Of a DNA stretch of 60,348 nucleotides, positions 21,069-60,348 are shown piece after piece; the stretch's first letter is position 1, and every line of letters begins with the position of its first letter. The position numbers and the translations under genes are program-made. Under the pieces are notes generated by a model, which had not been told where the DNA came from, did no database searches, and saw nothing but the letters and a program-made list of their open reading frames with translations. Location of the stretch: the UHGV virus genome UHGV-0030339. One strand, written 5' to 3'. Source of the stretch: a virus.

Positions 21069-21141
21069 TCGGAACACCTGGACTTGAACCAAGGCGCATG
21101 GCTTATAAGGCCACCGCTCTAACCAACTGAGCTATGTTCCG
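21069..21141 (-). tRNA. tRNA, anticodon TAT (Ile-like)
   Basis: cloverleaf folded by hand: acceptor CGGAACA/TGTTCCG, D-arm GCTC..GAGC, anticodon loop CTTATAA, T-loop TTCAAGT. Confidence 0.7.
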
Positions 21142-21443
21142 TTTTTAAATGCGGTGCCGCTTCTCCAAACTGCATATGCCCCGTGAAAGCATTCTAGGTG
21201 ATATGCAAGCACCTGACGGCCTTGTACGTGACCGCCGAACGGATTTTAACGTCTTTACTGACCTTAACCTTATTGCGAGGAGAAGGATTCTGCTGCCTAT
21301 AACAGCCGTGTTGACGCACAGGTTGATTTTCACAAATCCCACCGGACCTTGTGACGGTCCTTTAATCAGCTTTCCGCTAGTGGGTCAGGGAGGATACCTA
21401 TATGAAAACACATACAGATATTGGGGCCCTTGCCATACCCCAG

Positions 21444-21516
21444 CTAGGCTACCGGGATTTGAACCCGGGCATTCAGGAGTCAAAGTCCTGTGTCTTTACC
21501 GCTTGACTATAGCCCA
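21444..21516 (-). tRNA. tRNA-Gln (anticodon TTG) with U1-A72 and G73
   Basis: acceptor TGGGCTA/TAGCCTA, anticodon loop CTTTGAC, T-arm CCGGG-TTCAAAT-CCCGG. Confidence 0.7.
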
Positions 21517-25291: not shown

Positions 25292-25663
25292 ATGAGAAAA
25301 TACACCGTAGAAAACAGAAGCAAGTACACCGAGTTAATCACATTTGACGAGCTTAACAGCAAGGGCGAGAAAATCCAGCTTGAAATTATCAAATGCACAA
25401 ATCCGGGTGGAAAGCATTCCCTCCCGTACCTCTGGAAGAAAAACGGATTCGCTGACAAGATTCTTGATACCTGGTTAAGCATTGACACATACGCCACCGA
25501 GGACGGCGGAAAAGGTACTTGCTGGGGGCGCTACAATCCACAGACCAAATTATCAGAAGACGGAAGACGCCAAGTTATCAACTTTGAGTGGATGCTTGAA
25601 GCCACCGAAGAAAACCGCAAAAAACTTATAGAAGAAGTTGAGCGGTTAGCGTTTACAAAATAA
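25292..25663 (+). CDS. hypothetical protein (moron-like, higher GC)
   Basis: strong RBS aaaggaga; 123 aa. Confidence 0.55.
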   Translation: MRKYTVENRSKYTELITFDELNSKGEKIQLEIIKCTNPGGKHSLPYLWKKNGFADKILDTWLSIDTYATEDGGKGTCWGRYNPQTKLSEDGRRQVINFEWMLEATEENRKKLIEEVERLAFTK

Positions 25664-26057
25664 GCCGAAACGCCCGCCAGGGCGTCCACCGCGGGACGGT
25701 CTCCCGGTGCTGATGAGGCAGACCAGAAAGGGAAAAACATGAGTAGCGAAGATAGACACGTTTTAGAAAGCTTGGTATTTGCTTATTTTGTCGGTGAAAT
25801 GGAAATGGAGCCGATCACGGCACGCCGCAAAGTTGACAACATGACAGATGAGCAACTAGAAAGCTTTACAAAATAACCGCCGCAGGGGATGCAAGCCCGG
25901 CCCGATACCGGGCGGCGGTGTTTATCTCCCGGCTCCCAGGTTGAAAGGGAAGAAAGAAAAGCTATGTTAGATTTTATCATGGCGATATGCATATTTTTAG
26001 GTGGTTATGCGTGCCGCGTAGCTGCTGAGGATACAGAAGAATAAGGAGGTTCACACA

Positions 26058-26354
26058 ATGAGAAAATACGATTTTGACAAAATGGGCGGTTTATGGGCAG
26101 ATCAGGCCCGCGAGATTACAGAAAAGGGCGTATTTGTAGCCCATTCCGGCAATTGGGATTTATGGAGCTATTCCGGCACTGTTTATAGTATCCCGGTTAA
26201 AGGCTCCGGCTGCGGTGCTTCCGCTTGGTGTGCCCTGTCCAATCTGCGGCGGCATCTGTACCACCTGCGGAACGTCTGCGGCTATGCAGATCTAATCCCG
26301 GCATATTGGGAAGATATCAACCGGGATTTCCTGAACTCTTACGGTATTGTATAA
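26058..26354 (+). CDS. hypothetical protein
   Basis: RBS aaggagg; 98 aa. Confidence 0.5.
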   Translation: MRKYDFDKMGGLWADQAREITEKGVFVAHSGNWDLWSYSGTVYSIPVKGSGCGASAWCALSNLRRHLYHLRNVCGYADLIPAYWEDINRDFLNSYGIV

Positions 26355-26399
26355 ATATTGCCTGCTATCCGGATCCAGTCCGGCGAGGGTTCGCGACCT

Positions 26400-27300
26400 G
26401 TAGCAGGCGTTTCCTCTGTTGTACCTTGCCACGCCCGGCAAACGTGGAAACCATACCGGAACAGAGATAACAAAGCGGCTAGGATGTCAGGAAAGCGAAG
26501 GCAGCCGCAAAACTTCGCAACGATTTTATAGCAGCCCCAAGAGCATATACAGCAAATAAACGGCCTTAAAGCCGTTCCGAGAGCCGCGAGCGGTAAATAA
26601 CAGCGGCGATCCTGTGAGGGCTACCCATGCGGTAATAAGTGCATACACCAGGCGCAAGGAAAAGCGGAACCCGTGGAGGTTGGCAATAATCCATAACCAG
26701 AGATACCACGTTAAACACAAGGGCTCATATTGGACGCAGCCGAGAGCGTAAGACCCGAAAACCGCACGAGACCGGGAAAGCGGTATAAAATCGGCCCGGC
26801 ATCGTGTCAACGCCTTAAGGGACACAAACAAAGATTGAAGGCAATCAGAAAAAAAGTACTTGCTGCAGATCACCAGCAAGCCGGGCACTTGTAAACCTTT
26901 CCACCCTCTGCCGGAGTTAGGCAGCGCACAACGGGCGGCGATATAGTCCAGTATAGCGCGGGAGGTACTCCCTATAAGCCACGGGGCAGGACGTGGACGG
27001 AAGAAGGACACACTATACAAAGCAACCAGAAAACCACAGCAAAGCAGAAAGAAAGTGATAAAAATGTTTACAGCTGACATCATAAGCCAGAAAACAAGGG
27101 CGGTGTATATTGCCGCCCCGGTATCTATGATCTTGTTAATTCTTCAATATATTTGTACGGCGGGTTTTGCCTCTGCTCACACGCTTCTTTTGCTTGCGCT
27201 GCCTGTATTCAGTCTTTATGATTGTTATGTTTCCGCGCTTTTCTTCCATTCTAATCTTGACGGCCTCCGGGATATAGGCAGACGTTATAAGCCGGTGCTT
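26400..27300 (+). ncRNA. candidate large structured non-coding RNA (purine-rich, ORF-free, many local hairpins); strand uncertain
   Basis: no ORF in any + frame; the only minus ORF is a no-A compositional artefact; hairpins such as aacggccttaaagccgtt, cttgctgcagatcaccagcaag, gggaggtactccc. Confidence 0.3.
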
Positions 27301-27313
27301 GGTTCCCGATCTA

Positions 27314-28024
27314 CTACCCATTTATCCACACCCCCGCATCATTTAAAACGGTTTGTCCGCCACTGATCCGCCGGATCTGCTGCCCGTATGACTCCAGGTA
27401 GACCACCGGCGCAAGGTCCCGGGGTAAATTCTGAAGCTCAGGCCCCACAACTAGCACTTGATCTGGATGTAACCGGCGAATCATTTCCCGGTATCCAGTC
27501 TCAAAGCAGTGTTTCCCGTCATCCCAGAAGCAGCCGGTTGTACTTATTGCCACTGTTCCGCCCTGGCTCAGTCCGTCAAAACAAAAACTAAAGCTGTCTG
27601 GGCTGCCCCATCCAACCGAAGGAATCACTTCAAAACCGTTGGCATGGAGCCACCAGCTAAGCGCCCGGCTTCTGTAGACTTGCCAAACCTTCATAGCTAG
27701 CGGCATACCGTCATAAAATGAAAAATCCGGTGCGCAAACATATCTGAAATTCTCCAAAATTCCAAAATATTTCTCTGGATTATTCCATAATCGCTCAAAC
27801 CTGTGATCGTCAATAAAAAAATGGCATACAGAATTTCTGGGCTTTAGTTCTCTTTGTGCCAAATTAAAAGGCACTGCTTTAACTCCAGTCAAATCTGCGT
27901 TGACCGCCGGAAGTTTTGGAAAACCATATTTCCCGTCTAATTCTGAGCCATACAAATAGCGCTCACGTATTACATCGTTAATCGTATTGATTTCTTGATA
28001 CATTCGGTTCTCTCCTTTCGTCAA
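27314..28024 (-). CDS. hypothetical protein
   Basis: 236-aa ORF. Confidence 0.45.
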   Translation of the reverse strand: MTKGENRMYQEINTINDVIRERYLYGSELDGKYGFPKLPAVNADLTGVKAVPFNLAQRELKPRNSVCHFFIDDHRFERLWNNPEKYFGILENFRYVCAPDFSFYDGMPLAMKVWQVYRSRALSWWLHANGFEVIPSVGWGSPDSFSFCFDGLSQGGTVAISTTGCFWDDGKHCFETGYREMIRRLHPDQVLVVGPELQNLPRDLAPVVYLESYGQQIRRISGGQTVLNDAGVWING

Positions 28025-32509: not shown

Positions 32510-33859
32510 TTAAAAAGTAACGAAACGAATTTCTATATCGTTTCCGCTAATAACAATTCTTTCAATACATTCTTTCAAAACTCGGTTTTTCTCCTTAACA
32601 GAAAGCGTGTCCCAAACATCCGAAACATGCTTAATCTCTTGGATTTTTTGGGTATTATCTGGTTCCTTTCTATCATTTTCAGTTAAAAGTTGTTTGTTCA
32701 GTTTTTCAATTTTCTTTTCCGTCTCCTTGATGACGTCCATCAAGTTTTTACTTGGATTATCTGCATAAAGTACATATAAACGTTTGACATGCTCATTTTC
32801 TTTTCTAATTGCTACTTTGAGCTTTGCAACCGGATCATCTTTCGGTCCACTATTCGCTTTAACATTGATAGCAAACTTTTTAAAGCAGTCTTCCACATCT
32901 GCTTCTATAATCTCTGCATATGCTTTAATGTTAGTGCAGTTTTTATCCCGAATCATGTAACTCTTGCCACTGTATTGCGAGTAGCAAATAATGCGTGGCT
33001 TTATTCCGTCCCATTTATGATATCTCATCCTAGCACCACATATTCCACAGTAACACAGTCCACTTAACAAATAACCATTTGACACATGAGCATTTGTTGA
33101 ACGCTTTTTTTGCATATCTTGAACCAAGTAAAAAGTTTCTTCGTCAATGATAGGTTCATGCTTGCCTTTATAGACATTGCCTTTGTATTCAATTAATCCA
33201 ATGTATGTTTTACGCTTAAGCGCATTTTTCACAACATTTTCACAGCTAAATCCAAGAATATTAGCAATTTTATCACATGAGTATCCTTTCAGGTAAAGTC
33301 TAAATGCATCACGAACCAGAGCTGCCTTATCAGTATTGACATGGAGTATTCCGTCATTTCTATCGTAATAATACCCAACAGGAATATTTCCACCACCAGG
33401 CCAAAGACCGTTTTTTACACGTTCAACCATTCCTGAAGACATCCTCATTCGGATGACTTCCCTCTCATACTGGTTCATTGCTGCGTTCATAGTCAGCATC
33501 ATTCTATCCATTGGATTTTCTGTCCGCAACTCTTCTGTCATGGACACAACCTTTACTCCATATCCAGGAAGTGTTTTGTAGAACAAAGTCAGTGTATCAA
33601 TAACATCACGACTCATACGATCCAATTTATAGATGTACACCGTATCTATGATTCCACTTTTTGCATGTTCAAGCAACTCCTGTATCTCCGGTCTATCAAG
33701 TTTACTTCCACTATACCCCCCGTCTATGTACCATTTGTCAATAGTAATACCATGTTTTTCACAGTAATCCATGATTTTTTGTTTCTGCATATCCAAGCCG
33801 TATTTTTCAGTCTGTGTCTCTGTTGATACTCTCAAATATGCCACTTGCAATTTGCTCAT
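32510..33859 (-). CDS. large serine recombinase (phage integrase)
   Basis: N-terminal YLRVSTETQ...DRMSRD resolvase catalytic domain plus zinc-ribbon/coiled-coil C-terminus; 449 aa. Confidence 0.85.
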   Translation of the reverse strand: MSKLQVAYLRVSTETQTEKYGLDMQKQKIMDYCEKHGITIDKWYIDGGYSGSKLDRPEIQELLEHAKSGIIDTVYIYKLDRMSRDVIDTLTLFYKTLPGYGVKVVSMTEELRTENPMDRMMLTMNAAMNQYEREVIRMRMSSGMVERVKNGLWPGGGNIPVGYYYDRNDGILHVNTDKAALVRDAFRLYLKGYSCDKIANILGFSCENVVKNALKRKTYIGLIEYKGNVYKGKHEPIIDEETFYLVQDMQKKRSTNAHVSNGYLLSGLCYCGICGARMRYHKWDGIKPRIICYSQYSGKSYMIRDKNCTNIKAYAEIIEADVEDCFKKFAINVKANSGPKDDPVAKLKVAIRKENEHVKRLYVLYADNPSKNLMDVIKETEKKIEKLNKQLLTENDRKEPDNTQKIQEIKHVSDVWDTLSVKEKNRVLKECIERIVISGNDIEIRFVTF

Positions 33860-42918: not shown

Positions 42919-43662
42919 TCACTTCATAAAATCCGGCATTGCCTGCTGGCCGTCTGGTTCGGTTATTGTTTCCGGTTCTTCTGGTTCAAAATCAACCATA
43001 TTGGCATTGGCTGCAATTTCTTTTTGAGCCTGCATCTGCATTTCTTCCACTGGATATTCCTTAAAGTCGTTGTCCTGCATTTCCTCTTTTGTATACAGTC
43101 CCATAGTCAGTTCTGGGCAATTAAGGCTAGAAAAGAAAGATGCAGCTCTGTAACGAAGCATCAGCTGTGGCATGGTTTTCCATTTGCTTCCATTTTTAGA
43201 AAGCCAGCCTTCATCTTTTGCCATATCCATATCAACAGTCATACCTTCAACTCGTCTGCCGTTCTTCATTGTCCATGCCATGCAAGAAAATGGCTTCCCG
43301 TCTTTATCCTTCGTTTCCTCAAACTGCAATTCCATGTCAAATTTTCCAGAATTGTTAATAGCTGCAATCAAGAATTTAGAACTCCATGACGGTCTACCTT
43401 GGATTACATAAAGGTTCTGCATAACCATAAGCGGACTAACCTTAAGCCGATTGGCCTGCTCTATTGCAATTAAACAGTTTGCATCATTCCTCTGAAATGT
43501 AGCCGGAACAATTGTAGAACTCGAAAGCGCTTTAGCCATTTGCATAGCCATAATGAAATTGTCTGACGTACCAAAAATTCCAAGACTGTAGTCTGTCACT
43601 TTGTTTCTTGCCTGAATGGCCTCTTTCTTTTCCTCCGTTACTGCTATCTGTGTATCTGCCAT
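42919..43662 (-). CDS. recT: RecT-family single-strand annealing protein
   Basis: 247 aa; family pattern; acidic C-terminus. Confidence 0.7.
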   Translation of the reverse strand: MADTQIAVTEEKKEAIQARNKVTDYSLGIFGTSDNFIMAMQMAKALSSSTIVPATFQRNDANCLIAIEQANRLKVSPLMVMQNLYVIQGRPSWSSKFLIAAINNSGKFDMELQFEETKDKDGKPFSCMAWTMKNGRRVEGMTVDMDMAKDEGWLSKNGSKWKTMPQLMLRYRAASFFSSLNCPELTMGLYTKEEMQDNDFKEYPVEEMQMQAQKEIAANANMVDFEPEEPETITEPDGQQAMPDFMK

Positions 43663-43911
43663 AATTATTTCTCCTCCCCATCAAAAATAAGATTTATAAA
43701 ATCATTTACAATTTTCTCTTTTCCTTTTAATTTTTCTGCTTCTTCGTGAAGTTCCTCATCTGTTTTTCGGGATTTCTCTATTGCAAAATCTACAAGTTTA
43801 TCTCCGAAATTTTCTCTTGCACTTTTCAAAATAGTAAATACTTCGCCAAGAAGATCTACTGTATTTCCATTCATTTCCACTAAACCTCTATCTGCTTTAA
43901 TCATATTTTCC

Positions 43912-44934
43912 CTACCTTTCCAATAATTCTTTTACATACAAATCCATTGAATGGCACAGCTTAATGCAATTTCCATGTAATGCATGGTTTTTCCAAGCAT
44001 TATATTTTTCGTAAAACTTCTCTTCTGGCATTTTTTCAACCTTAACCAACTCTATCCATTTACGGATGTTTTTCTTGGCTCTACGTTTGTTGCTGCCATT
44101 CAATTTCCTTATATACTTGCCGTCAGATGTTATATAATGGTGAAAACCTGTAAAAGCTATCCCACATTTAAACGGAACTATTTGTGTTTTCCCATTTAGC
44201 TCCAATTTAAGGCTTGACAGAATTTGTATTATCTGATCTAAGCACATCTTCAGATACCCTTTGTCTGGATGAATTAAATAAAAATCATCCATATATCTCC
44301 CATACCTGGAAATTTTGAGATTTTCCGTAATGATATGATCCATTTCATCTAACATCAGAAGCGCATATACCTGCGCTACCTGGTTTCCAAGGGGAAGTCC
44401 CAGACCTTCTGTACTGTCAATAAATAAATGGTTCAGCCATTTAATGTACTCATCTGGGAAATGATAATCTACAATCTGTTTGAGGATTTCGTGATCTATC
44501 TTGTAGAAAAACTTCCTGATATCACACTTAAGAATCCAACCAGATAGTCCGTATTGGCTATAAAACTCTAACATCTGCTCTTTCAGGCAATCCATTCCAT
44601 AATGAGTACCTTTACCCTCTTGCCCGGCATAATTCGTTCTGATAAAACGTTCCTTTAATACCGGATGCAAGATTTCATCGCAAAGACAATGCTGCACCAC
44701 TTTGTCTTTAAAAGAACACGATTTAATCACCCGTTCTTTAGGCTCATATATTTTAAATTCATTGTACGGGTTCATACTATATGTCTGATTTTCCAGTTGC
44801 TCTTTTAATAGGTGCAAACCTTCCAAATTCATAGTCTGGAATTTCGCACAACTTCCATTAAAACCTTTACCAGACTTAGCTTTCCTATACGCTTTATACA
44901 GGTTTTCATAACTACATATAACATCTTTATACAT
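43912..44934 (-). CDS. diversity-generating retroelement reverse transcriptase
   Basis: 340 aa; DGR-RT N-terminus (NLYKAYRKAKSGK...DKVVQHCL), LGNQVAQ (DGR variant of the QGxxxSP box), YMDD. Confidence 0.85.
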   Translation of the reverse strand: MYKDVICSYENLYKAYRKAKSGKGFNGSCAKFQTMNLEGLHLLKEQLENQTYSMNPYNEFKIYEPKERVIKSCSFKDKVVQHCLCDEILHPVLKERFIRTNYAGQEGKGTHYGMDCLKEQMLEFYSQYGLSGWILKCDIRKFFYKIDHEILKQIVDYHFPDEYIKWLNHLFIDSTEGLGLPLGNQVAQVYALLMLDEMDHIITENLKISRYGRYMDDFYLIHPDKGYLKMCLDQIIQILSSLKLELNGKTQIVPFKCGIAFTGFHHYITSDGKYIRKLNGSNKRRAKKNIRKWIELVKVEKMPEEKFYEKYNAWKNHALHGNCIKLCHSMDLYVKELLER

Positions 44935-45032
44935 TGTAAAAATTCCTTTGTATTTACCCTTCCTGGGAGGGCCATGAGCTTTTTTGTATCTTTTACTGAT
45001 TTCGGCTTAATGCCTACTCTTACCGTCTGTGT

Positions 45033-45106
45033 GATACAGAATGGACGAACACCGTTGTTGTTATTGTAATTGTTGTTGTTGATATTGCCGGAAGGCGAAA
45101 CAACGG
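45033..45106 (-). repeat. DGR template repeat (TR)
   Basis: 74 bp homologous to the VR copies; coding sense is AAC/AAT-rich (GNINNNNYNNNNGVRPF); every TR-VR mismatch sits at a TR adenine. Confidence 0.85.
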
Positions 45107-45131
45107 TTTGTACAGTTCACAGCCCAATTTC

Positions 45132-45503
45132 TTATCTTTCTCTGTCTTTCGTTCTCCAAGCAATCGCCATATGCTTAATATCGGTCACTATTTTTGACCA
45201 ATATTCCATGCTTTTCACATTGATAATATTTAACTTCATGGACAATTCAATGTAAAACAGAAGCTCATCGCAATGTGTGATTGCCTTGGTTTGCAATTCT
45301 GACCGGTCCCTGCGATATGATTTCAAATCAGTTCTGTTTGCTTCGTACAGATACTCATAAATTTCAAGAGCCTTATTCTGCATTTTATCTACAAGAGAAA
45401 ATCTATATTTCTTGGGATACCGGTTGCAATTTGAAGTCACTCGCAAGGTATGCTCCGCCAGTTCCTTTGCTTTAAGAATCACCTTTAAGTCGTTTTCTGC
45501 CAT
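45132..45503 (-). CDS. avd: DGR accessory variability determinant (Avd)
   Basis: 123-aa basic helical protein between the VR-bearing gene and TR-RT. Confidence 0.7.
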   Translation of the reverse strand: MAENDLKVILKAKELAEHTLRVTSNCNRYPKKYRFSLVDKMQNKALEIYEYLYEANRTDLKSYRRDRSELQTKAITHCDELLFYIELSMKLNIINVKSMEYWSKIVTDIKHMAIAWRTKDRER

Positions 45504-45507
45504 TTAC

Positions 45508-46122
45508 TTATTCCTCTGATTCAAAGATTGAAGAGGAAAAGATACAAAACGGACGAACACCGTTGCTGCCATAGTAACTGCAGTAGTTGACATCGCCGGA
45601 AGGCGAAACAACGGCTACTGTACTGGAATAATCATTGCAGGGTGTACTCCATGGAGTAATTAACCACCACCATTTATTTGCATTAGGAATGTACTCCCTA
45701 TATTTTCTGTACTCATCTACTGTCAGAAGAGACATTTTATCAGTGCATGATCCGTATTCTGTCTGACCATCCAGAGAAATGAGATTTCTTTCAAACTCTA
45801 ATACATTTCCTTTACCTATTTCTTCTTCCAGCTTTTCTAAAAACTCTTTGTTCAGATAGCTTCTCAGGTCACTTGTTTTCCAGTTGTTATCATCAGAGTC
45901 AAATTCTCTATTTCCAATAGATTCTGCCAGGCACATATATCCCGCATCTGTAATATCCAGAATTTTCCATGTTGTTCCAGCAAGTTGAAATTCGTCTCCG
46001 ATTGAAAGTCCAGCCGGTAGATTCTTCATGTTCTTAGAATCGTTACCTTTCAATGCATTTATTTCTTTCTTCAACTCATCGATCTGATCCTGAAGCACTT
46101 TCATTGTTAATGCCATGATCAT
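45508..46122 (-). CDS. DGR target protein 1 (DUF1566/C-type-lectin-like variable domain at C-terminus)
   Basis: C-terminal ...WWWLITPWS...VAVVSPSGDVNYCSYYGSNGVRPF; VR at its 3' end. Confidence 0.8.
   Translation of the reverse strand: MIMALTMKVLQDQIDELKKEINALKGNDSKNMKNLPAGLSIGDEFQLAGTTWKILDITDAGYMCLAESIGNREFDSDDNNWKTSDLRSYLNKEFLEKLEEEIGKGNVLEFERNLISLDGQTEYGSCTDKMSLLTVDEYRKYREYIPNANKWWWLITPWSTPCNDYSSTVAVVSPSGDVNYCSYYGSNGVRPFCIFSSSIFESEE
45541..45614 (-). repeat. DGR variable repeat VR1
   Basis: flanks ggacgaacaccgtt / gccggaaggcgaaacaacgg identical to TR; internal differences only at TR adenines. Confidence 0.85.
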
Positions 46123-46718
46123 TCTCCCTTCGATACAAAGATATGAGATTTCAAGATACAGAACGGACGAACACCGTGGAAGTTAATGCAACCGCTGTTG
46201 CTGACATTGCCGGAAGGCGAAACAACGGCTACTGAGTACTCCCAACCGCGTTCTTTGGTGCTCCATGGGGTGCATGTCCACCCCCAGTCATTCAGATTCT
46301 TATTGACAAGCAGGTCATTAAATTCCCTTGCCTCATCAAAGGTAATTGGCCTTACTTTGCATACACAGTCTTCATATTCATGCTGCATATCTACCGATGC
46401 CAAGTTTACAGTATGCTCAATCAGATTTTCTGCGCCTACAGCATTTTCAATGATCGGCTGAATATCCGATTCAATCAGTTTTTTAAGTTTGGACTTATTG
46501 TAATCTGTTGATCTTTTGTCAAATTCAACATTCTCGGCCATAAAGCCCTTTGAAATAACTGCCGCATAATTAGGTGCCTGCATAAGCACGATAAAATCAT
46601 GCTCACCAACTTTAAATACTTCCCCTGGCTTCAGTTCTGACAGCCTCGCTTCGTTCTTTTTCTCTGCTTCTTCTAATCGCTTTACTAACTCTCTTGCCAT
46701 GTCTAAGGCTTTGCTCAT
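46119..46718 (-). CDS. DGR target protein 2 (paralog of target 1)
   Basis: C-terminal ...CTPWS...VAVVSPSGNVSNSGCINFHGVRPF; ATGA overlap with target 1. Confidence 0.8.
   Translation of the reverse strand: MSKALDMARELVKRLEEAEKKNEARLSELKPGEVFKVGEHDFIVLMQAPNYAAVISKGFMAENVEFDKRSTDYNKSKLKKLIESDIQPIIENAVGAENLIEHTVNLASVDMQHEYEDCVCKVRPITFDEAREFNDLLVNKNLNDWGWTCTPWSTKERGWEYSVAVVSPSGNVSNSGCINFHGVRPFCILKSHIFVSKGE
46155..46228 (-). repeat. DGR variable repeat VR2
   Basis: same conserved flanks; adenine-specific substitutions relative to TR. Confidence 0.85.
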
Positions 46719-46900
46719 TTTTACTTCCTCCCTTACTAAATTGCGTTAAATGTCTGGACTGCAAACAGCTCATTTACGGTCTTTTTAAAGACTTCACCGT
46801 CAATCTTCACGCTGTACATAAACCCGTCATTTTCAAGAGTTACTCTGCACTGCTTTTTTCCTGCCCAAATTCTCTTTTCCTTTTCGATAACCAACATTTC

Positions 46901-48817
46901 TTAACCCTCCACTTTTAATTTTCCACTGTCGTTTACGACCAACATAATCAACTGACCTCTGACCATGTTAGAAACCTTTTTCTGGTTTTCAGAGTCCAGT
47001 GATTCGCAGTCATCCACCCAGATAGGAACTGATATTCCGACAATATCCTGTACGCTCTGGCAAATATCAACTCTACCAAGGATCCGATTACCCTTGTTAC
47101 TGATCGTTGTAAGGATAGATTTATCGTCAACCATAGGAATGCAGGTCGATTTATAGTTGCCATTCTTTGCGGTTTCAAATAACTGCCACTGAACTAATTT
47201 GAATTTCTGGTTGATCTGGTTTGAAAGCTCCTCATTCTTAGCTTTCTCCAATTCTGTAAGCAGATAAAGGACCTTTTCTGAATCTGCCTGCTGCTGCACC
47301 ATGTCAGTTCTCTGTTCTTTCAACTCTGCCAGACGCTTCTCTTCGGCTTCCGTATTTGACATAAGAATCTTTGATTCGCAGCCAGAAAGTTCTTCTCTTA
47401 GCTCCTGTTCCTCTTCCTTAAGTGCTTTTCGGTACTCGGAAATATTTTCCATGCTCTTAAGCGCATTTTCTTTTTCAGTAATCTGCTGCTTAATTTCCTG
47501 ATATTCACTTGTATCCGATATGTCGATCTTTTCCGGAAGTTCTGAAAGCTTGTCTTCTAATTCTTTAATCTCGGAAAAAACTGCATCATACTCAGCTTTT
47601 TGCTCTTCCAGATCTAACCGAAACTGGTCTAAATCTTTTGTTTTCCTATCCAACTGGTCTTTGGTATTGTTTCCGTCTGTTGTGATTGAAGCAAGCAGCT
47701 CTGCCTTTTCCTTTTCAAAATTGGTAAAAAGCTCTGCCTTCTTCTCTTCTGGATAAAGCTGCCTGCAGTACGGGCAAATGAGAGACTTTTCGTCAAGTTT
47801 TCTCTCATTCTCTTCTTTCCACTCTATACGGATACCTTCCAGTTTTCCTTTTAACCGATCAATAGCATCTGTAGCCGCAGAAATTTTGGTTTCGATAGCA
47901 TTTATATCTGCCTGTAATTTGTTACGCTCCAATTTCTTTTGTATGGAAACATCCAATAATTTAGACCTTTCTTCCACCAGTGACTCATTCGCTTTTCTTT
48001 CAAGCCCAGACAGTTCCATTTTCAGTTCTAAAACACCGTCAGTTAGCTCATTATAATTCTCATAAAGTTTTTCACTTTCAAGCTGCTTATCAGCATTTTC
48101 CTGAATTTTCTGCTTAAGGCAGTTTTTCTGGACTTCCAGATCAGATACATCCATATCTGACTTGGCTTTAATATCCGCTTCCTTTTCCCTAATCTGTCCC
48201 TCTAATATAGGAAGCTCTTTTTTAATATCAGCTACTTTTTTCTTATTCATCGCTGATAATTCCTCTGCTGAATATTTTCCAAGCAGCACTCCCAGTTCTG
48301 CCAGATCTGGATATTTGTCTGCCACAGACGTATCCGGAATATCTTTGACTGTCTGGAATAAAAACTTACGGACCTCATCCGGTTTCTGATTGAGAAATGC
48401 GTTAATATTGCTTGACATTTTAAAAGCATTTCCAACTTCCAAATATTCATTAAATTCAGTTTTGGTCTTCGAAACGTCATTAATAAAATACTTGTTATCA
48501 TCTTTATATGAGCTTCCGTCTTTGCTATAGGTACGCTTCTGTACCTTGCGAACTGTAATCTCTCTTCCGTCCATATCCAGAACCAGAGTTACTTCTACAT
48601 CACCGTCTACCGGCGATCCGTTTACCTCACGTCTTACAACTGGATTACTTCTCATTTCATAATCGCAGTCAAGAAAGCACCAAGTATATGCACTTGCTAT
48701 GCTGGACTTGCCTTTTCCGTTTGCACCAGAAATGACGGTCTTATCATGGAAATGGAAATCCTGTTCTTCATAACACATGAAGTTTTTGAGGTGCATACTT
48801 AAAAGCTTAATTTTCAT
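46901..48817 (-). CDS. SbcC/RecN-like AAA ATPase with zinc hook
   Basis: Walker A GANGKGKSS, long coiled coil, CPYC hook, C-terminal ABC signature region. Confidence 0.7.
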   Translation of the reverse strand: MKIKLLSMHLKNFMCYEEQDFHFHDKTVISGANGKGKSSIASAYTWCFLDCDYEMRSNPVVRREVNGSPVDGDVEVTLVLDMDGREITVRKVQKRTYSKDGSSYKDDNKYFINDVSKTKTEFNEYLEVGNAFKMSSNINAFLNQKPDEVRKFLFQTVKDIPDTSVADKYPDLAELGVLLGKYSAEELSAMNKKKVADIKKELPILEGQIREKEADIKAKSDMDVSDLEVQKNCLKQKIQENADKQLESEKLYENYNELTDGVLELKMELSGLERKANESLVEERSKLLDVSIQKKLERNKLQADINAIETKISAATDAIDRLKGKLEGIRIEWKEENERKLDEKSLICPYCRQLYPEEKKAELFTNFEKEKAELLASITTDGNNTKDQLDRKTKDLDQFRLDLEEQKAEYDAVFSEIKELEDKLSELPEKIDISDTSEYQEIKQQITEKENALKSMENISEYRKALKEEEQELREELSGCESKILMSNTEAEEKRLAELKEQRTDMVQQQADSEKVLYLLTELEKAKNEELSNQINQKFKLVQWQLFETAKNGNYKSTCIPMVDDKSILTTISNKGNRILGRVDICQSVQDIVGISVPIWVDDCESLDSENQKKVSNMVRGQLIMLVVNDSGKLKVEG

Positions 48818-50200: not shown

Positions 50201-50965
50201 TTACCTTTTCTCCGCTTCTTCCTCTACATTGACTTCCCGCACACTTCCGACAAACTTATTGACAAAGTAAATCTGACCTTTGCCTGTGACTTTTGTTGTC
50301 CGGGTTATTCGTACTGATCCGTCTGGGTTCTGTACATTGCTTTCTTTGACCTCAAACAACCCTTGTTCTACATACCTTTGCATTGGCATGTTTTTTGAGC
50401 TTCCGCCCTTTACCAAGTACCCATTTTCTCGCAGCCACTCAAATAATCTTTTCTGCCCTATCTGGTATCCGTTTTGGCAAATCAGCTTTGCCAAGTCACC
50501 AACAAGAATTGATGTGTGACTTGCGCTTACCGCATCCGCAAAAATTGTCTTAGGTTTATCGGCTTCAATTTTCTGCTCCAGAAGTCGGTTATTATGCTTT
50601 AGATCTTCAATCTGCCGGTCTGCGATTTTCAAGGCTCTTGCCATAACCTGTTCAGGCGTGTTCCAGGCTTTTTCCAAATCAATGAGATATTCTCGTATCT
50701 GCTTGCCTTTTTCAGTTCTCGACATAAGCGATAAATGTTTGGCCATTAATACTGAAATTTGATAATCTTCAAGCTCTCTTGTTGCACCATTGTTTACAAC
50801 CGTACTCGATGTACACTTGTGATAATCTTCGTTCTCTACAAATAATTCCTTATTTGTATCAAACCACCTACTAAATCTTGAAACGATACCCAATGCACTA
50901 TGCAGTTCTCTAGCGGACACTGTTTGCGTGTCAAAATTTACGTTCAATAACTCATTCATTTCCAT
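50201..50965 (-). CDS. phage antirepressor (Rha-like N-terminus, KilA-C/ANT C-terminus)
   Basis: VSARELHSALGI.SRFSRWF and ...LAKLICQNGYQIGQKRLFEWLRENGYL. Confidence 0.65.
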   Translation of the reverse strand: MEMNELLNVNFDTQTVSARELHSALGIVSRFSRWFDTNKELFVENEDYHKCTSSTVVNNGATRELEDYQISVLMAKHLSLMSRTEKGKQIREYLIDLEKAWNTPEQVMARALKIADRQIEDLKHNNRLLEQKIEADKPKTIFADAVSASHTSILVGDLAKLICQNGYQIGQKRLFEWLRENGYLVKGGSSKNMPMQRYVEQGLFEVKESNVQNPDGSVRITRTTKVTGKGQIYFVNKFVGSVREVNVEEEAEKR

Positions 50966-51575: not shown

Positions 51576-51764
51576 CTAACTACTGACTAGCTCAGCCACT
51601 GTAATTCCAGTTACCTTTGCGATTTTTTCAAGGGTATCCAATGATGGTTTGCTACCCTTTTCCCATCTTCCGATAGTTCCATTTCCGATGTTACATTTCT
51701 TTTCAAACGCCGCAATCGAAAGACTGTTTTTCTCGCAATACTTTATGATTTTTTTATAAATCAT
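51576..51764 (-). CDS. Cro-like XRE HTH protein
   Basis: 62 aa, HTH LSIAAFEKKCNIGNGTIGRWEKG. Confidence 0.7.
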   Translation of the reverse strand: MIYKKIIKYCEKNSLSIAAFEKKCNIGNGTIGRWEKGSKPSLDTLEKIAKVTGITVAELVSS

Positions 51765-51977
51765 AAAATCGTCTCCTTTCTCTAAATATTTAGAGAAAAG
51801 TCTATTGACTTTAATTATATAGCGGTCTAAAATATGAATTGTCCAGAAACATATTTTTAGAGGCTTTTCTATATTATTTTTAGGCTTTTCTCTAATTCAT
51901 AAGCCAATTATATAGACTAACCTCTAATTTGTCAACCCTATTTTTAGAGTTTTACCTAATTTTTTAGGAGGTAGTCA
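51765..51977. promoter_or_regulatory. divergent promoter/operator region with repeated ATTTTTAG(A/G)G motifs and palindrome TCTAAATATTTAGA
   Basis: repeats at ~51781, 51854, 51877, 51942, 51962; TTGACT-17-TAAAAT at 51805-51833. Confidence 0.55.
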
Positions 51978-52322
51978 ATGAACGCAGTAGAACGGGTAAA
52001 AGCCATATGTAAACAGCGAAAAATACCAATTTCTAAACTAGAAACTGATTTAGGATATGGAAATGCATACATATCCAGATTAAAAAAAGGCGTATTCCCC
52101 AATGATAGATTAGAGGAAATAGCCAATTACTTAAATTTATCGTCTTATTATCTTTCCACCGGGGAAGAAAAATCCCCTAATGAATTGCCGGATCAGTCTG
52201 AATTATGGAAGAAAATTCGCCATGATGAAGCACTGCTAAGTGCTTTAGAAAAGTACATGAAACTTTCAGACAAAAAGAAAAAGCACGTTCTTGATACAAT
52301 CGACGTGCTTAGTGAGGCGTAA
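51978..52322 (+). CDS. CI-like XRE HTH repressor
   Basis: 114 aa, HTH ISKLETDLGYGNAYISRLKKG, divergent from the cro-like gene. Confidence 0.7.
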   Translation: MNAVERVKAICKQRKIPISKLETDLGYGNAYISRLKKGVFPNDRLEEIANYLNLSSYYLSTGEEKSPNELPDQSELWKKIRHDEALLSALEKYMKLSDKKKKHVLDTIDVLSEA

Positions 52323-53800: not shown

Positions 53801-53890
53801 TTGTTCTGTTCCTTTCTTGATTGTGATATACTGTTAATATCTTTTTACTTTTCTACAAATTTCTGCACCACACCCATTACCTGTTGATAC

Positions 53891-53933
53891 TATACTTTAT
53901 GGGAAGTCGATTTTTGGTGTAGCGGGGAATGTA
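53891..53933. repeat. inverted repeat L of the tail-fiber invertible segment
   Basis: tatactttatgggaagtc 18-bp perfect core; ~43 bp imperfect IR with 54527-54570. Confidence 0.75.
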
Positions 53934-54263
53934 AGACGATATGCTTATAAAAGTGGAACTGTTAATTCGTCTTCTGGTACACTGGCTTTTAAGGAAAGTG
54001 GTGGTTCAACCTATTATCTTCATTATTGTCAGATAAACAATATAGGATTTACCCCTATACTGGCTGTTTTTTTTGGTAGTGGTCACGTAACAATAGTTAG
54101 CAGTGGTGGCAATATAAACTTAGAAGCACAAAACGCAAGTGGAACCGGATATTATGCGAAAGGTTCCAATAGTAATGTAGTATTTAGCAGTTCTAAAGTA
54201 CAGGTGCCATCCACGTATCCTAGTGCAAATCCACATTGGTATTTTATAGCTGGATATTATTAA
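53891..54263 (+). other. promoterless alternative tail-fiber C-terminal cassette (no start codon) inside an invertible segment
   Basis: + frame encodes TILYGKSIFGVAGNV...AGYY*, paralleling ILYGKSIFGVSGNV...VTGYY* of the minus-strand gene. Confidence 0.7.
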
Positions 54264-54913
54264 TAGTATCCTGTAACGTAGTAATTGTATGTAAAATTAG
54301 CTGTAGTAACTTTTATTGTGATTGAATTACCATTTCTTGTTGGTGTAGATGTAGGCATGCTTGGGAGAATTAATGTATCTCTTGGATTCCATGGTACAGT
54401 TATTGATACATCTCTAGGATCTTCCACTTTCATCAAAATCCAGGATGTCACATAAAATCCAGGATTTAAAGTAACATAACCATTATTGTTTGAATTAACC
54501 TGTCCACTTCGAGATGCGTGCTGACGTACATTACCACTTACTCCAAAAATGGACTTCCCATAAAGTATATTATTACCAGTTAAATTCCCATCACCTTTGA
54601 TAACAATATCGCCGGTCATTTTCTTACCACTGCATGATACTGTCTGTTGAGCCGTATTAGGCGTATAAGTCCCACCACTCATCGTACCCATGGTGCCGGT
54701 CTGCTTGCTTTTGGGATTGGTGGTATAGAAAGTTTTACCGGATAACACATCACCGGCTCCGGCATCGCCACTAAGGGTTAGTGTACCTGTTAAAGGCTCT
54801 CCATCTACGCCAACAATTACCTTTCCAGACAAAACATCGTCCGCTGCGGCTGATACAACATCGAGGTCAATTCCACCACTACCACCAATCATTAATACCT
54901 GTCCCATGGTCAT
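54260..54913 (-). CDS. tail fiber / receptor-binding protein with switchable C-terminus
   Basis: DVLSGK..Y repeats; C-terminal half lies within the invertible segment. Confidence 0.65.
   Translation of the reverse strand: MTMGQVLMIGGSGGIDLDVVSAAADDVLSGKVIVGVDGEPLTGTLTLSGDAGAGDVLSGKTFYTTNPKSKQTGTMGTMSGGTYTPNTAQQTVSCSGKKMTGDIVIKGDGNLTGNNILYGKSIFGVSGNVRQHASRSGQVNSNNNGYVTLNPGFYVTSWILMKVEDPRDVSITVPWNPRDTLILPSMPTSTPTRNGNSITIKVTTANFTYNYYVTGYY
54527..54570. repeat. inverted repeat R of the tail-fiber invertible segment
   Basis: reverse complement of IR-L, located inside the fiber gene at codons ~115-129. Confidence 0.75.
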
Positions 54914-58936: not shown

Positions 58937-59563
58937 TTAAAGCTCATAATCTGGATAAACAGCTTCCCAAACATCTTTATGATAAGCATTAATCGACCCA
59001 TAATTAGCGTCGAAGATCTTCTTGACTTCGTACCCCATACGTTCCCCAGCCTCTTTTAGCCTTCTCCATTTGAATGTTTTCCAAGAAACATTATTCAGTG
59101 CTGCTACTCGCTTGATAGAGTACCAATCTTTGCTTGTATCAAGCTGTGCCTGTAGCTCTGCTTCCCGATCCAGGCTTTCCAAAAGCTGTGCGATAGCGTC
59201 CCGGTAAGACATCGGCATATTCATCTTATCGTCTTTCTTCTGGAAGTAATTGTCAACTAGGCGGTCATACACTTCCCATGCCTGATCCGTATTCAGTGAC
59301 TTAGCGTGAAGAAAAGCACCTTTTTCTGTCCAGAGGTAAATTGTTTTTGCATTTTTCAGACCGTCGTGATTTTCCAGACGGTTCACAAATAAGGTCTTTT
59401 CTTCGTTTTCAAGTTTTATAAAATGTTTTCCTTCTACAAAACGATCAATATTGTGGTTAAAATTGTACGAGATTGTTTTTCTGTCCGTTCCATACGCTTC
59501 CGCAATCTGCTGTGTGGTCAATACTCTCTGGCATCTGTACTCTGTTACTGTTAATCCTTCCAT
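58937..59563 (-). CDS. ORF6N-domain antirepressor-like protein (paralog of 1224..1856)
   Basis: RVLTTQQIAEAYGTDRKTISYNFNHNIDRFVEGKHF. Confidence 0.55.
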   Translation of the reverse strand: MEGLTVTEYRCQRVLTTQQIAEAYGTDRKTISYNFNHNIDRFVEGKHFIKLENEEKTLFVNRLENHDGLKNAKTIYLWTEKGAFLHAKSLNTDQAWEVYDRLVDNYFQKKDDKMNMPMSYRDAIAQLLESLDREAELQAQLDTSKDWYSIKRVAALNNVSWKTFKWRRLKEAGERMGYEVKKIFDANYGSINAYHKDVWEAVYPDYEL

Positions 59564-59874: not shown

Positions 59875-60080
59875 CTGTGAAGTGGTGAACTACCCATTGT
59901 CTAAAGCCAATGGGCTTCCTGCTTCCCTGACCTCGTAACCTACTATCTCCACAGGCGTTAATTCGGGCAGTTCCTGCCCTATGTTGTTATTCCTTTTATG
60001 CTATTTGTCTTAATCCTTCTTCCAGTATATTCTTCGCCGCATTGATATCCCTGTCATGATTCGTTCCACAGACGGGACAT
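59875..60080 (-). ncRNA. candidate TnpB omega-RNA (reRNA) scaffold covering the tnpB 3' end and RE
   Basis: established architecture of IS200/IS605 TnpB systems; no sequence-specific verification possible here. Confidence 0.35.
59893..59914 (-). repeat. IS right-end subterminal hairpin
   Basis: cccattggctttagacaatggg (minus strand). Confidence 0.7.
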
Positions 60081-60348
60081 ATCCATTCCCTTACTGTCAG
60101 ATTTTTCGTCTCTGTATTTTGGTATCCACAGACTGAACACAACTGACTACTGGCATAGAAGGTATCTATTTTGACATATTCCCTTCCATTCCATTTTGCC
60201 TTGTATTCCAACTGCCTTGTCAGCTCATACCATGATACATCACTTATTGACTTTGCCAGATGATGATTTTTTACCATATTCTTTATCTGCAAATTCTCCG
60301 AGACTATCACTTGGTTTTCGCTGATAATCTCATGGGATATCTTGTGAA
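59996..60348 (-). CDS. tnpB: TnpB C-terminal part (RuvC-II E, zinc finger, RuvC-III)
   Basis: ...[44 protein letters not shown]. Confidence 0.85.

What the first reader, a model, noticed from the sequence alone, without database searches (positions are those of the whole stretch)
43912..46718. Diversity-generating retroelement diversifying two tandem small DUF1566/C-lectin-like proteins in the early (recombination) module, not in the virion genes
The sequence shows a DGR-type reverse transcriptase, a 123-aa Avd, and a 74-bp TR (45033-45106). Two VRs (45541-45614 and 46155-46228) sit at the 3' ends of two translationally coupled paralogous genes. The conserved flanks (ggacgaacaccgtt ... gccggaaggcgaaacaacgg) are identical, and every TR-VR mismatch falls on an adenine of the TR coding strand. 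TR encodes GNINNNNYNNNNG, VR1 encodes GDVNYCSYYGSNG, and VR2 encodes GNVSNSGCINFHG, so mutagenic retrohoming has clearly occurred into both targets. The targets are ~200-aa proteins with coiled-coil N-termini and no signal peptide or fiber features. They lie between an SbcC-like ATPase and RecT in the early operon. Phage DGR targets are usually receptor-binding tail proteins, so intracellular hypervariable binders co-expressed with recombination genes suggest a different role, for example adaptable binding of host defense or takeover targets. The same phage separately carries a DNA-inversion switch on its tail fiber.
Basis: seen in the sequence. Interest (0 to 1): 0.85.

Follow-up and report, generated by a model that had tools for sequence, protein, structure and literature searches.

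The report
Phage DGR diversifying two early-gene lectin-fold proteins
A gut-bacterial virus carries a working mutation-generating retroelement whose only two targets are small binding proteins encoded among its early DNA-recombination genes, not its tail genes; the retroelement and the protein family are already known, but this placement suggests a job other than host attachment.

Summary
On the minus strand the order is target 2, target 1, avd, TR, RT. This is a canonical diversity-generating retroelement (DGR). 22 of 23 TR-VR mismatches fall on TR adenines (P about 4e-11), and there is no third VR in the genome. Related phages keep the AAC-rich TR while their VRs differ. Non-adenine flank variants are shared by the TR and both VRs within each genome. 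Two near-identical contigs differ almost only in VR1. Both targets are about 200 aa: an N-terminal helix followed by a DUF6273 C-type-lectin-like domain (AF2 pLDDT 92.8).

The early-module placement is real. The cassette lies about 5 kb downstream of a consensus early promoter, between a Rad50/SbcC-like ATPase and RecT. It is an accessory insertion: most related recombination modules lack it. Homologous small DUF6273 genes also sit in early regions of FP_Brigit, FP_Toutatis, nd4 and a nucleotide-metabolism-rich phage.

Small DUF6273 DGR targets are already published (nd4/nd12 tgt2, Lelie, Toutatis) and assumed there to be receptor binders. A non-structural phage DGR target has a precedent in Quimbyvirus. 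An intracellular or counter-defence role is plausible but untested. Verdict: new member of a known kind, moderate interest.

The parts
51907..51935 (-). Consensus sigma-70 promoter-like site (TTGACA-17-TATAAT) of the lysogeny switch, reading into the early operon that contains the cassette
   Evidence: The only 12/12 match in 38-53 kb. It lies just upstream of a cro-like HTH gene (51576-51764, minus strand) and faces a divergent repressor-like gene at 51978-52322 on the plus strand. That it is the early promoter is inferred.
46901..48817 (-). Rad50/SbcC-like ATPase, the upstream flank and a core gene of the recombination module
   Evidence: Pfam AAA_23 1.6e-16. phrog_77 'SbcC-like subunit' 1.4e-54. 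Lies directly upstream of the target pair in 56 of 80 related loci.
46736..46897 (-). 53-aa ORF between the ATPase and target 2, function unknown
   Evidence: ORF. Conserved in close relatives. No family hit.
46119..46718 (-). Target 2 (199 aa): N-terminal helix plus DUF6273-like C-type-lectin-fold domain
   Evidence: phrog_9958 8.2e-29. Pfam DUF6273 17.3 bits, below the 23.5-bit cut-off. 30-33% identical to target 1. 4851 homologues.
46155..46228 (-). VR2
   Evidence: 11 mismatches to the TR, all at TR adenines. The hypervariable residues in 120 homologues are nearly all here.
45508..46122 (-). Target 1 (204-aa ORF; the likely start at 46116 gives 202 aa): helix 2-26 plus DUF6273 C-type-lectin-fold domain
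45541..45614 (-). VR1
   Evidence: 12 mismatches to the TR: 11 at adenines and one C>T near the 3' end. The only positions with 2 bits or more of entropy among 120 homologues lie here. A hairpin follows it, z = -2.5.
45132..45503 (-). Avd accessory protein
   Evidence: phrog_3206 'Avd protein of DGR' 4.8e-22. NCBIfam DivGenRetAVD 7e-12, below its cut-off. Pfam bAvd and 23S_rRNA_IVP hits, below their cut-offs.
45033..45106 (-). Template repeat (TR), AAC/AAT-rich, between avd and RT
   Evidence: Conserved across related loci while the VRs vary.
44935..45032 (-). Non-coding spacer between the TR and RT. Assigning it to the DGR RNA is inferred by analogy with BPP-1.
   Evidence: The first 45 nt after the TR, the stretch compared, are nearly invariant even in relatives whose RT is only 76% identical. 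Folding alone is not significant, z = -1.0.
43912..44934 (-). DGR-type reverse transcriptase (YMDD present)
   Evidence: Pfam RVT_1 5.4e-15. phrog_1423 4.6e-101. Best solved-structure match is 8ub7_A at 2.5e-36 over nearly the full length. 38-48% identical to the RTs encoded in nd12, nd4, Lelie and Toutatis, phages reported to carry DGRs.
43665..43904 (-). 79-aa ORF between RT and RecT, function unknown
   Evidence: A homologue is present in 20 of 80 related loci (cluster 11). No family hit.
42919..43662 (-). RecT-family single-strand annealing protein, the downstream flank
   Evidence: Pfam RecT 2.1e-07. phrog_561 1.6e-74.

Best explanation
This is a canonical, recently active diversity-generating retroelement in a complete, circular, roughly 60.3-kb temperate siphophage-type genome of the human-gut Lachnospiraceae kind. 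Its order is target 2, target 1, avd, TR, RT. The TR is transcribed, and the RT-Avd complex copies it into cDNA while misreading adenines. The cDNA then replaces the 3' ends (VR1, VR2) of two tandem paralogous genes. This randomises 9-11 codons on the ligand-binding face of a DUF6273 C-type-lectin-like domain. These steps are shown by sequence pattern and by comparison with relatives; the biochemistry is inferred from BPP-1. Each target is only a short N-terminal helix plus that domain. I suggest a collectin-like neck-plus-lectin oligomer, but that is untested. The five-gene cassette is a mobile accessory module inserted into the early operon between a Rad50/SbcC-like ATPase and RecT. It has no target in the virion module. 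I infer that the two proteins are made early in infection as soluble hypervariable binders. I think they are most likely not built into the virion, and that they recognise a variable host or competitor molecule in the infected cell. The ligand and role are unknown.
For: DGR identity: RT, Avd, TR and two VRs in canonical order. 22 of 23 mismatches fall at TR adenines, P = 4e-11. The RT's best solved relative is 8ub7_A at 2.5e-36.

Information flow and recent activity: across 106 distinct cognate TR-VR pairs from related loci, 1258 of 1481 mismatches are at TR adenines. Non-adenine variants in the 5' flank are shared by the TR and both VRs within each genome but differ between genomes. Contigs L005 and L006 differ at 17 of 2952 positions, 14 of them in VR1. 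Among 120 target-1 homologues, the only positions with 2 bits or more of entropy are 9 VR residues.

Early placement: there is a consensus promoter at 51935-51907. Between it and the cassette the scan found only two terminator-like sites, neither followed by a good T-run. The genes are tightly packed or overlapping. Terminase, portal, capsid and tape-measure genes lie 25-40 kb away.

Placement in relatives: SbcC-like upstream in 56 of 80 loci and a single-strand annealing protein within six genes in up to 64 of 80, nearly always downstream. In 21 genome loci, mostly Lachnospiraceae, the genes within three positions of the cassette are mostly SSB, RecT, DnaB, Lin1244, ERCC4, HTH or methylase genes. 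Only one tail hit and one packaging hit appeared. Distant homologues sit in early regions of FP_Brigit (after cI/cro, before exonuclease and RecT), FP_Toutatis and nd4. In another phage a close homologue pair sits between ThyX and DNA ligase.

The phage already has a separate invertible tail-fibre C-terminus.
Against: Nothing here measures expression timing or virion composition. 'Early' and 'non-virion' rest on synteny only. The whole genome is transcribed in one direction, so read-through and other promoters cannot be excluded.

Where DUF6273 proteins have a described or proposed setting, it is extracellular or virion-linked: the tentaclins, some larger phage proteins carrying tail or receptor-binding annotations, and the IgA protease (PMC10743442). 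In Toutatis, Lelie and nd4 one TR serves both a tentaclin and the small protein, which suggests a shared kind of ligand.

The 80 IMG/VR loci are close relatives, not independent samples. The cassette is an accessory insertion absent from about 50 of about 60 related SbcC-RecT modules. Its position may therefore reflect a permissive insertion site rather than function. No known anti-defence or takeover family matches the targets.
Confidence: 0.55

Rival explanations
1. The two small proteins are extracellular receptor- or adhesion-binding proteins, functionally like Mtd. They would dock on the tail or capsid through the N-terminal helix, or act after release at lysis, even though they are encoded in the early region. 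The DGR would then serve host-range or environment adaptation, as the published papers assume.
For: The experimentally studied phage DGR target, Mtd of BPP-1, is a virion receptor-binding protein (as summarised in PMC8008677 and PMC8144416). DUF6273 occurs in tentaclins, in some larger phage proteins carrying tail or receptor-binding annotations, and in a secreted IgA protease. In Toutatis, Lelie and nd4 the same TR diversifies a tentaclin and the small protein (PMC10743442, PMC11792537, bioRxiv 10.1101/2024.10.15.618418). A helix followed by a lectin domain would suit an avidity-type surface binder; this is my suggestion, prompted by the tetranectin hit.
Against: The genes consistently lie in early or DNA-metabolism modules in several unrelated phage backbones: a siphophage-type genome here, the myovirus nd4, Brigit, Toutatis and a ThyX/NrdD-rich phage. 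It is hard to see a common virion docking partner across these. There is no domain beyond a roughly 25-aa helix to anchor to a virion. This phage already varies its tail-fibre tip by DNA inversion.
Confidence: 0.3
2. The cassette sits beside RecT and the SbcC-like ATPase because the phage recombination machinery helps install the mutagenised cDNA into the VRs. This would be single-strand annealing at replication forks, as in retron- or oligo-based recombineering.
For: The order SbcC-like, targets, Avd, RT, then RecT or a second annealing protein recurs in many related loci. As far as I know, the cDNA integration step of DGRs is unresolved.
Against: The cassette is an insertion missing from most homologous SbcC-RecT modules. 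In other Lachnospiraceae prophages it lies several kb from, or on the other side of, the annealing-protein gene. In Toutatis, Brigit and nd4 the RT is far from the recombination genes.
Confidence: 0.08
3. The element is a frozen relic. The VR differences are historical and the DGR no longer works in this genome.
For: Some relatives (L007, L009, L010) have lost the RT and most of avd yet keep both diversified targets. An identical genome copy and a 12.9-kb contig fragment from another sample carry the same VRs. Published work on Lelie saw no read-level variation (PMC11792537).
Against: In this window the RT (YMDD), Avd and TR are intact, and the TR-VR flanks are identical. Near-identical genomes differ almost only in a VR. 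Hundreds of 82-94% identical proteins differ essentially only at VR residues.
Confidence: 0.1
4. The RT is a defence-type enzyme (retron, Abi or DRT) or a group II intron enzyme, and the repeats are coincidental.
For: Generic RT models for DRT, retron and group II enzymes give sub-threshold matches.
Against: None of these reaches its family cut-off. The RT is 38-48% identical to the RTs encoded in nd12, nd4, Lelie and Toutatis, phages reported to carry DGRs. An Avd gene and a TR lie immediately upstream. The adenine-specific pattern has P = 4e-11.
Confidence: 0.01

Closest known systems
Bordetella phage BPP-1 DGR (mtd-avd-TR-brt)
   Same: Same gene order: target, avd, TR, RT. Adenine-specific TR-to-VR mutagenesis. 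The VR is at the C-terminus of a C-type-lectin-fold protein. The RT's best solved relative is 8ub7_A; I believe this is bRT, but the organism was not shown in the output.
   Different: BPP-1 has one target, a 381-aa tail-fibre-tip protein with N-terminal beta-prism and beta-sandwich domains, encoded at the end of the tail genes. Here there are two tandem targets of about 200 aa with only an N-terminal helix, encoded in the early recombination module.
Small DUF6273-only DGR targets of gut phages: nd4_tgt2 and nd12_tgt2 (Baykov 2023, PMC10743442), the small targets of Lelie and CP11 (Gulyaeva 2024, PMC11792537), and FP_Toutatis gp24 (Egorov and Atkinson preprint, 10.1101/2024.10.15.618418)
   Same: Homologous proteins, 32-37% identical. 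Same DUF6273 lectin-like domain with a C-terminal VR flanked by short helices. In the records I inspected they also lie in early regions.
   Different: In those phages the RT-avd-TR unit lies 10-17 kb away near the tail genes (nd4 about 10 kb; Toutatis 17,480 nt per the preprint). It also diversifies a large Ig-domain 'tentaclin'. Here the whole DGR lies next to the small targets, there are two of them, and there is no tentaclin or other VR. Those papers assume an Mtd-like receptor-binding role, and in the passages I read they do not discuss the early-region position.
Quimbyvirus DGR second target, given as ORF 80 or 84 in the paper (Benler 2021, PMC8008677)
   Same: A phage DGR target lying outside the structural module, argued to be non-structural and involved in phage-host conflict.
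   Different: That is a Bacteroides phage with a frameshifted RT. The target lies on the opposite strand in a defence/counter-defence island, and the same DGR also has a structural target. No homology to the proteins here was tested.
Cellular DGRs that diversify intracellular lectin-fold sensors in conflict systems of multicellular bacteria and cyanobacteria (PMC10907252, PMC7517822)
   Same: A precedent for DGR-diversified lectin-fold domains acting inside cells as putative antigen sensors.
   Different: Those are cellular, not phage, systems, and the lectin domain is fused to NTPase, kinase or protease effector domains. The proteins here are stand-alone.

Membership tests
Diversity-generating retroelement (DGR) | Reverse transcriptase of the DGR clade with an intact catalytic YxDD motif | tested here: met
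   YMDD is present. phrog_1423 4.6e-101. Best solved-structure match 8ub7_A at 2.5e-36 over residues 4-318. 38-48% identical to the RTs encoded in nd12, nd4, Lelie and Toutatis, phages reported to carry DGRs. No formal RT phylogeny was built.
Diversity-generating retroelement (DGR) | A TR/VR repeat pair whose differences fall almost only at TR adenines | tested here: met
   22 of 23 mismatches at A, P = 4e-11. 1258 of 1481 at A over 106 cognate pairs in relatives.
Diversity-generating retroelement (DGR) | Accessory variability determinant (Avd or an equivalent) next to the TR and RT | tested here: met
   phrog_3206 'Avd protein of DGR' 4.8e-22. NCBIfam DivGenRetAVD 7e-12 and Pfam bAvd 1.6e-4, both below their curated cut-offs.
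Diversity-generating retroelement (DGR) | VR at the C-terminal end of a C-type-lectin-fold (or Ig-fold) variable protein | tested here: met
Diversity-generating retroelement (DGR) | Unidirectional TR-to-VR information transfer that is still occurring | tested here: met
   This is indirect, from comparison of relatives. The TR is invariant while the VRs vary. Non-A flank variants are shared by the TR and both VRs within each genome. Near-identical contigs differ almost only in VR1. Read-level heterogeneity in the source sample could not be tested.
Diversity-generating retroelement (DGR) | IMH/IMH* asymmetry and a hairpin or cruciform downstream of the VR | tested here: inconclusive
   TR-VR homology ends at TGTATC. 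The bases just before it vary among VRs (A/G, T/G, C/T) while the TR always reads ATTC. VR1 is followed by a hairpin (z = -2.5) but VR2 is not (z = +1.6).
Pfam DUF6273 / phrog_9958 (stand-alone small form) | Match to the family profile above its curated threshold | tested here: met
   Target 1 scores 44.8 bits against a 23.5-bit cut-off, and phrog_9958 7.8e-54. Target 2 is below the Pfam cut-off (17.3 bits) but scores phrog_9958 8.2e-29 and is 30-33% identical to target 1. A profile search finds 1846 clusters at 50% identity, most of the best-scoring ones about 200 aa long.
Tentaclins (Baykov 2023) | [quoted passage not shown] | tested here: not met
   The proteins are 199-204 aa with no Ig domain, and the VR is at the C-terminus.
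Mtd-like tail receptor-binding proteins | N-terminal beta-prism and beta-sandwich domains that attach the trimer to the tail fibre; presence in the virion | tested here: not met
Known anti-phage defence or defence-associated RT systems (PADLOC: DRT, retron, Abi) | Component proteins match the system's models at their thresholds | tested here: not met
   No PADLOC hit for target 1, target 2, Avd, orf53 or orf79. The RT gives only generic RT matches, all below NCBIfam equivalog cut-offs.

The most novel reading that the evidence does not exclude
Stand-alone DUF6273 'neck plus lectin' proteins may be a widespread class of early-expressed, intracellular, DGR-diversified binders in gut Bacillota phages. 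They would act somewhat like a phage-encoded antibody, letting an incoming genome adapt its binding to variable host defence or takeover targets. Each variant would be selected directly through the replication of the genome that encodes it. This would be a second major use of phage DGRs besides receptor binding.
Probability: 0.3. Interest if true: 0.85.

Novelty: new member of a known kind. Interest (0 to 1): 0.5.

Why it matters
DGRs were the strongest genetic correlate of broad host range and high prevalence among human-gut phages in one atlas (PMC12636319). That is usually explained by diversification of tail proteins. This phage is a clean case where the only DGR targets are two small lectin-fold proteins inside the early recombination operon, while the tail fibre varies by a separate inversion switch. 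Homologous small DUF6273 genes lie in early regions of several unrelated phages, which the papers I read do not discuss. If these proteins act inside the infected cell, part of the DGR-host-range link would come from post-entry adaptation rather than adsorption. The proteins would also be a compact natural scaffold of about 200 aa for evolvable binders. If they turn out to be virion add-ons, this is simply one more DGR with an unusual gene position.

Tried and rejected
1. Megablast of 43-49 kb against GenBank phages found no match. Context therefore came from protein-level and IMG/VR searches.

2. The first AF2 run used a shallow 44-sequence alignment of close homologues and gave pLDDT 39.7, which is unusable. 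A second run with 85 sequences, including 50%-cluster representatives, gave 92.8.

3. The genome-contig scan with target 1 alone confirmed no relative, and alignment A2 was too divergent to seed a scan. Alignment A1 worked.

4. Pfam scans of ten N-terminally extended homologues, looking for an informative fused domain, found only DUF6273.

5. PADLOC and NCBIfam scans for a defence or anti-defence identity found nothing for the targets.

6. Avd against PDB sequences gave no hit.

7. A conserved hairpin downstream of both VRs was sought but is present only after VR1.

8. A third VR, for example in a tail gene, was sought and none exists.

9. Rfam has no match in the TR-spacer region.

10. I considered and set aside a functional link between the DGR and RecT, because the cassette is an insertion missing from most related modules.
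Full report
**1. What is in the sequence**

Between 43912 and 46718, five tightly packed minus-strand features lie in this order:
- a 199-aa ORF (46119-46718, target 2, T2);
- a 204-aa ORF (45508-46122, target 1, T1), whose first ATG overlaps T2's stop codon; gene callers start it two codons later, giving 202 aa;
- a 123-aa ORF (45132-45503);
- a 74-nt AAC/AAT-rich repeat (45033-45106);
- a 340-aa ORF (43912-44934) containing YMDD.

The 340-aa protein is a reverse transcriptase: Pfam RVT_1 5.4e-15 and phrog_1423 4.6e-101. Its best solved relative is 8ub7_A, at 2.5e-36 over nearly the full length. I believe that chain is BPP-1 bRT, but the output did not name the organism.

The 123-aa protein matches 'Avd protein of DGR' (phrog_3206, 4.8e-22). 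It also matches NCBIfam DivGenRetAVD, below that model's cut-off.

**2. The TR and VRs**

- TR against VR2: 11 mismatches, all at TR adenines.
- TR against VR1: 12 mismatches, 11 at adenines and one C>T near the 3' end.

With A making up 22 of the 74 TR bases, 22 of 23 at A has binomial P = 4e-11. A whole-window scan that ignores changes at A positions finds no third VR. The only corrections are the single C>T and the domain name.

**3. Evidence that the element works**

Related loci from IMG/VR and public assemblies keep the same cassette. In them the TR stays AAC-rich while the VRs differ.

Synonymous or neutral non-adenine variants in the 5' flank are shared by the TR and both VRs within each genome but differ between genomes. 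Examples are TCGCCTTCCGGC here, TCTCCGTCCGGC in another clade, and TCCCCGTCTGGCTAC in L017. This is what repeated TR-to-VR copying predicts.

Further counts point the same way:
- Over 106 distinct cognate TR-VR pairs, 1258 of 1481 mismatches are at TR adenines.
- Contigs L005 and L006, from different samples, differ at 17 of 2952 aligned bases, and 14 of these lie in VR1.
- Among 120 T1-like proteins, the only positions with 2 bits or more of entropy are 9 VR residues. The mean over all positions is 0.34 bits. The T2 family shows the same picture (alignment).
- Some relatives have lost the RT and most of avd but keep both diversified targets (L007, L009, L010). One clade has three targets (L011).

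**4. The targets**

T1 matches Pfam DUF6273 above the threshold (44.8 bits against 23.5). T2 is below it (17.3 bits). Both match phrog_9958 (7.8e-54 and 8.2e-29), and they are 30-33% identical to each other.

AF2 with a shallow alignment failed (pLDDT 39.7). With an 85-sequence alignment it gave pLDDT 92.8: a helix at residues 2-26, a short linker, then a compact alpha/beta domain whose last strands carry the VR.

- dozens of classical C-type lectin domains, including tetranectin, which combines a coiled coil with a lectin domain.

Prompted by that hit, I suggest the proteins are collectin-like 'neck plus lectin' modules that probably oligomerise. That is an inference. A profile search finds 1846 clusters at 50% identity, and most of the best-scoring ones are about 200 aa long.

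**5. Genome context**

The window equals a 60,489-bp k141 contig minus 141 bp. I take it to be a complete circular genome. Reading the minus strand from high to low coordinates:
- a perfect TTGACA-17-TATAAT site at 51935-51907, facing a divergent repressor-like gene;
- a cro-like HTH gene and an Ant gene;
- the Rad50/SbcC-like ATPase;
- the DGR cassette;
- RecT, an MBL-fold hydrolase, SSB, a PAPS-reductase-like gene, DnaD-like and helicase-loader genes, and a large serine recombinase;
- then, 25-40 kb from the cassette, the terminase, portal, major capsid and tape-measure genes.

Between that promoter and the cassette the scan found only two terminator-like sites, neither followed by a good T-run. 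By synteny the cassette lies in the early operon. Expression timing was not measured.

**6. Is the placement conserved or accidental?**

*Close relatives.* In 80 IMG/VR loci with T1 homologues of 53-84% identity:
- 71 have the tandem pair;
- 56 have the SbcC-like gene directly upstream;
- 52 have Avd and 46 have the RT;
- up to 64 have a RecT-type or second single-strand annealing protein within six genes, nearly always downstream.

These loci are relatives, not independent samples.

*Searching from the ATPase instead.* About 50 of about 60 usable loci have the order SbcC-like, annealing protein, a 102-aa ORF, MBL, SSB with no cassette. About 10 have the T2-T1(-Avd-RT) block inserted. So the cassette is a mobile accessory insertion in a conserved recombination module.

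*Bacterial genome loci.* In 22 loci, mostly Lachnospiraceae (Lachnospira, Roseburia, Agathobacter, Dorea and others), the cassette occupies various positions. In the 21 loci scanned, the genes within three positions are mostly SSB, RecT, DnaB, Lin1244, ERCC4, HTH, methylase or replisome-organiser genes. Only one Tail_P2_I hit and one GP3_package hit appeared among 118 neighbours.

*Other phage backbones:*
- A pair 82% identical to T1/T2 sits between ThyX and an NAD-dependent ligase in a phage rich in nucleotide-metabolism genes, with no RT within the 20-kb locus fetched.
- FP_Brigit gp06 sits right after cI/cro and before the exonuclease and RecT genes, while the Brigit RT is 41 kb away.
- FP_Toutatis gp24 sits among methylase and replication genes.
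- nd4 tgt2 sits among early and replication genes about 10 kb from its RT.

The early-region position is therefore a property of the small stand-alone DUF6273 family, not only of this phage.

**7. What is already known**

Small DUF6273-only DGR targets were described in nd4 and nd12 (PMC10743442), in Lelie and CP11 (PMC11792537), and in Toutatis (bioRxiv 10.1101/2024.10.15.618418). All were shown to have a lectin-like fold by AlphaFold and were assumed to be Mtd-like receptor binders. In the passages I read, none discusses the early-region position.

A non-structural phage DGR target was proposed for Quimbyvirus (PMC8008677). Large surveys state that viral targets are mostly tail proteins (PMC8144416, PMC12636319).

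What is new here is the arrangement. The whole DGR sits next to two small targets, there is no tentaclin or tail target, and the cassette is inside the recombination operon.

**8. Mechanism and rivals**

*Shown by sequence:* adenine-specific TR-to-VR transfer into both targets, recent activity in the lineage, the lectin-like fold, and accessory insertion into the early operon.

*Inferred:* early expression, absence from virions, and oligomerisation.

My best reading (about 0.55) is that these are soluble hypervariable binders made early and acting in the infected cell on a variable host or competitor molecule. A counter-defence role is attractive because each variant would be selected directly through its own genome's replication. 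I put that specific role at about 0.3.

The main rival (about 0.3) is an extracellular or virion-associated binder, as the literature assumes. It is favoured by the settings described or proposed for other DUF6273 proteins, which are extracellular or virion-linked, and by the sharing of one TR with tentaclins in other phages.

A mechanistic link to RecT (about 0.08) is weakened. A frozen relic (about 0.1) is weakened. A defence RT is excluded.

**9. Side observations**

- The phage has an invertible tail-fibre C-terminus. Arms of 92 nt at 53877-53968 and 54492-54583 flank the segment. A promoterless alternative C-terminal cassette on the plus strand shares the crossover motif ILYGKSIFGV and ends in GYY, like the active gene.
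- A type II hammerhead ribozyme lies at 25663-25727.

**10. Verdict**

This is a genuine, well-supported DGR and a new member of a known kind. The placement pattern is under-appreciated and makes the 'non-virion DGR target' question directly testable. Interest is moderate (0.5).

Noticed in passing
window 53877-54583 (arms 53877-53968 and 54492-54583); gene 54260-54913 (minus strand): 92-nt inverted repeats, 75% complementary, flank an apparent invertible segment. On the plus strand (from 53877 to about 54260) lies a promoterless alternative C-terminal cassette. It shares the crossover motif ILYGKSIFGV(S/A)GNVR and ends ...AGYY**, like the active 217-aa tail-fibre-like gene (...TGYY*). No small invertase gene is nearby. 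The only serine recombinase found is the 449-aa one at 32510-33859.
   Followed up: partly
window 25663-25727 (+): Type II hammerhead ribozyme, Rfam RF02276, 61.2 bits against a gathering score of 37 and matching the full model. It lies in the strand-switch region at 24-27 kb.
   Followed up: no
window 770-1189 (minus strand) and 59996-60310 (minus strand): Transposase-like ORFs (phrog_2577 8.8e-42; phrog_506 3e-48) at the two ends of the window. They lie between the tape-measure gene and the likely distal-tail genes. This fits a circularly permuted complete genome (the window equals a 60,489-bp k141 contig minus 141 bp) carrying an IS element.
   Followed up: partly
L011 10001-11169 (same contig as L077); L007, L009, L010: Variants of the cassette. 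One clade has three tandem DUF6273 targets. Several relatives have lost the RT and all but the first 21 codons of avd, yet keep both diversified targets.
   Followed up: partly
L021 9393-10609 (ena:ERZ28664020 scaffold_522), also L022 and L023: A pair 80-82% identical to T2/T1 sits between ThyX and an NAD-dependent DNA ligase in a different phage that is rich in NrdD, dUTPase, guanylate kinase and radical-SAM genes. No RT lies within the 20-kb locus fetched. Only a 61-aa ORF of unknown identity follows. Whether a TR exists elsewhere in that genome was not checked.
   Followed up: no
window 46901-48817 (minus strand): The Rad50/SbcC-like ATPase of the recombination module resembles the Lamassu defence protein LmuB (PADLOC PDLC03859, 1.9e-26). 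It is a core gene of this phage group's recombination module, so it probably reflects shared SMC/Rad50 ancestry.
   Followed up: no
window 50201-50965, 58937-59563, 1224-1856, 2904-3569 (all minus strand): Four Ant/Bro/Rha-type anti-repressor-like paralogues are scattered around the genome, two of them between the tape-measure gene and the distal-tail genes.
   Followed up: no
window 21069-21141 and 21443-21516 (minus strand); 26001-28000: Two tRNA genes, Ile(TAT) and Gln(TTG), lie just upstream of the packaging genes. A local G+C peak (0.49 against about 0.39) lies at 26-28 kb.
   Followed up: no
P0358 (6979 aa): A giant protein with 17 matched DUF6273-like stretches appears among the family representatives. 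The domain is therefore also used in large repetitive proteins, possibly at the cell surface.
   Followed up: no
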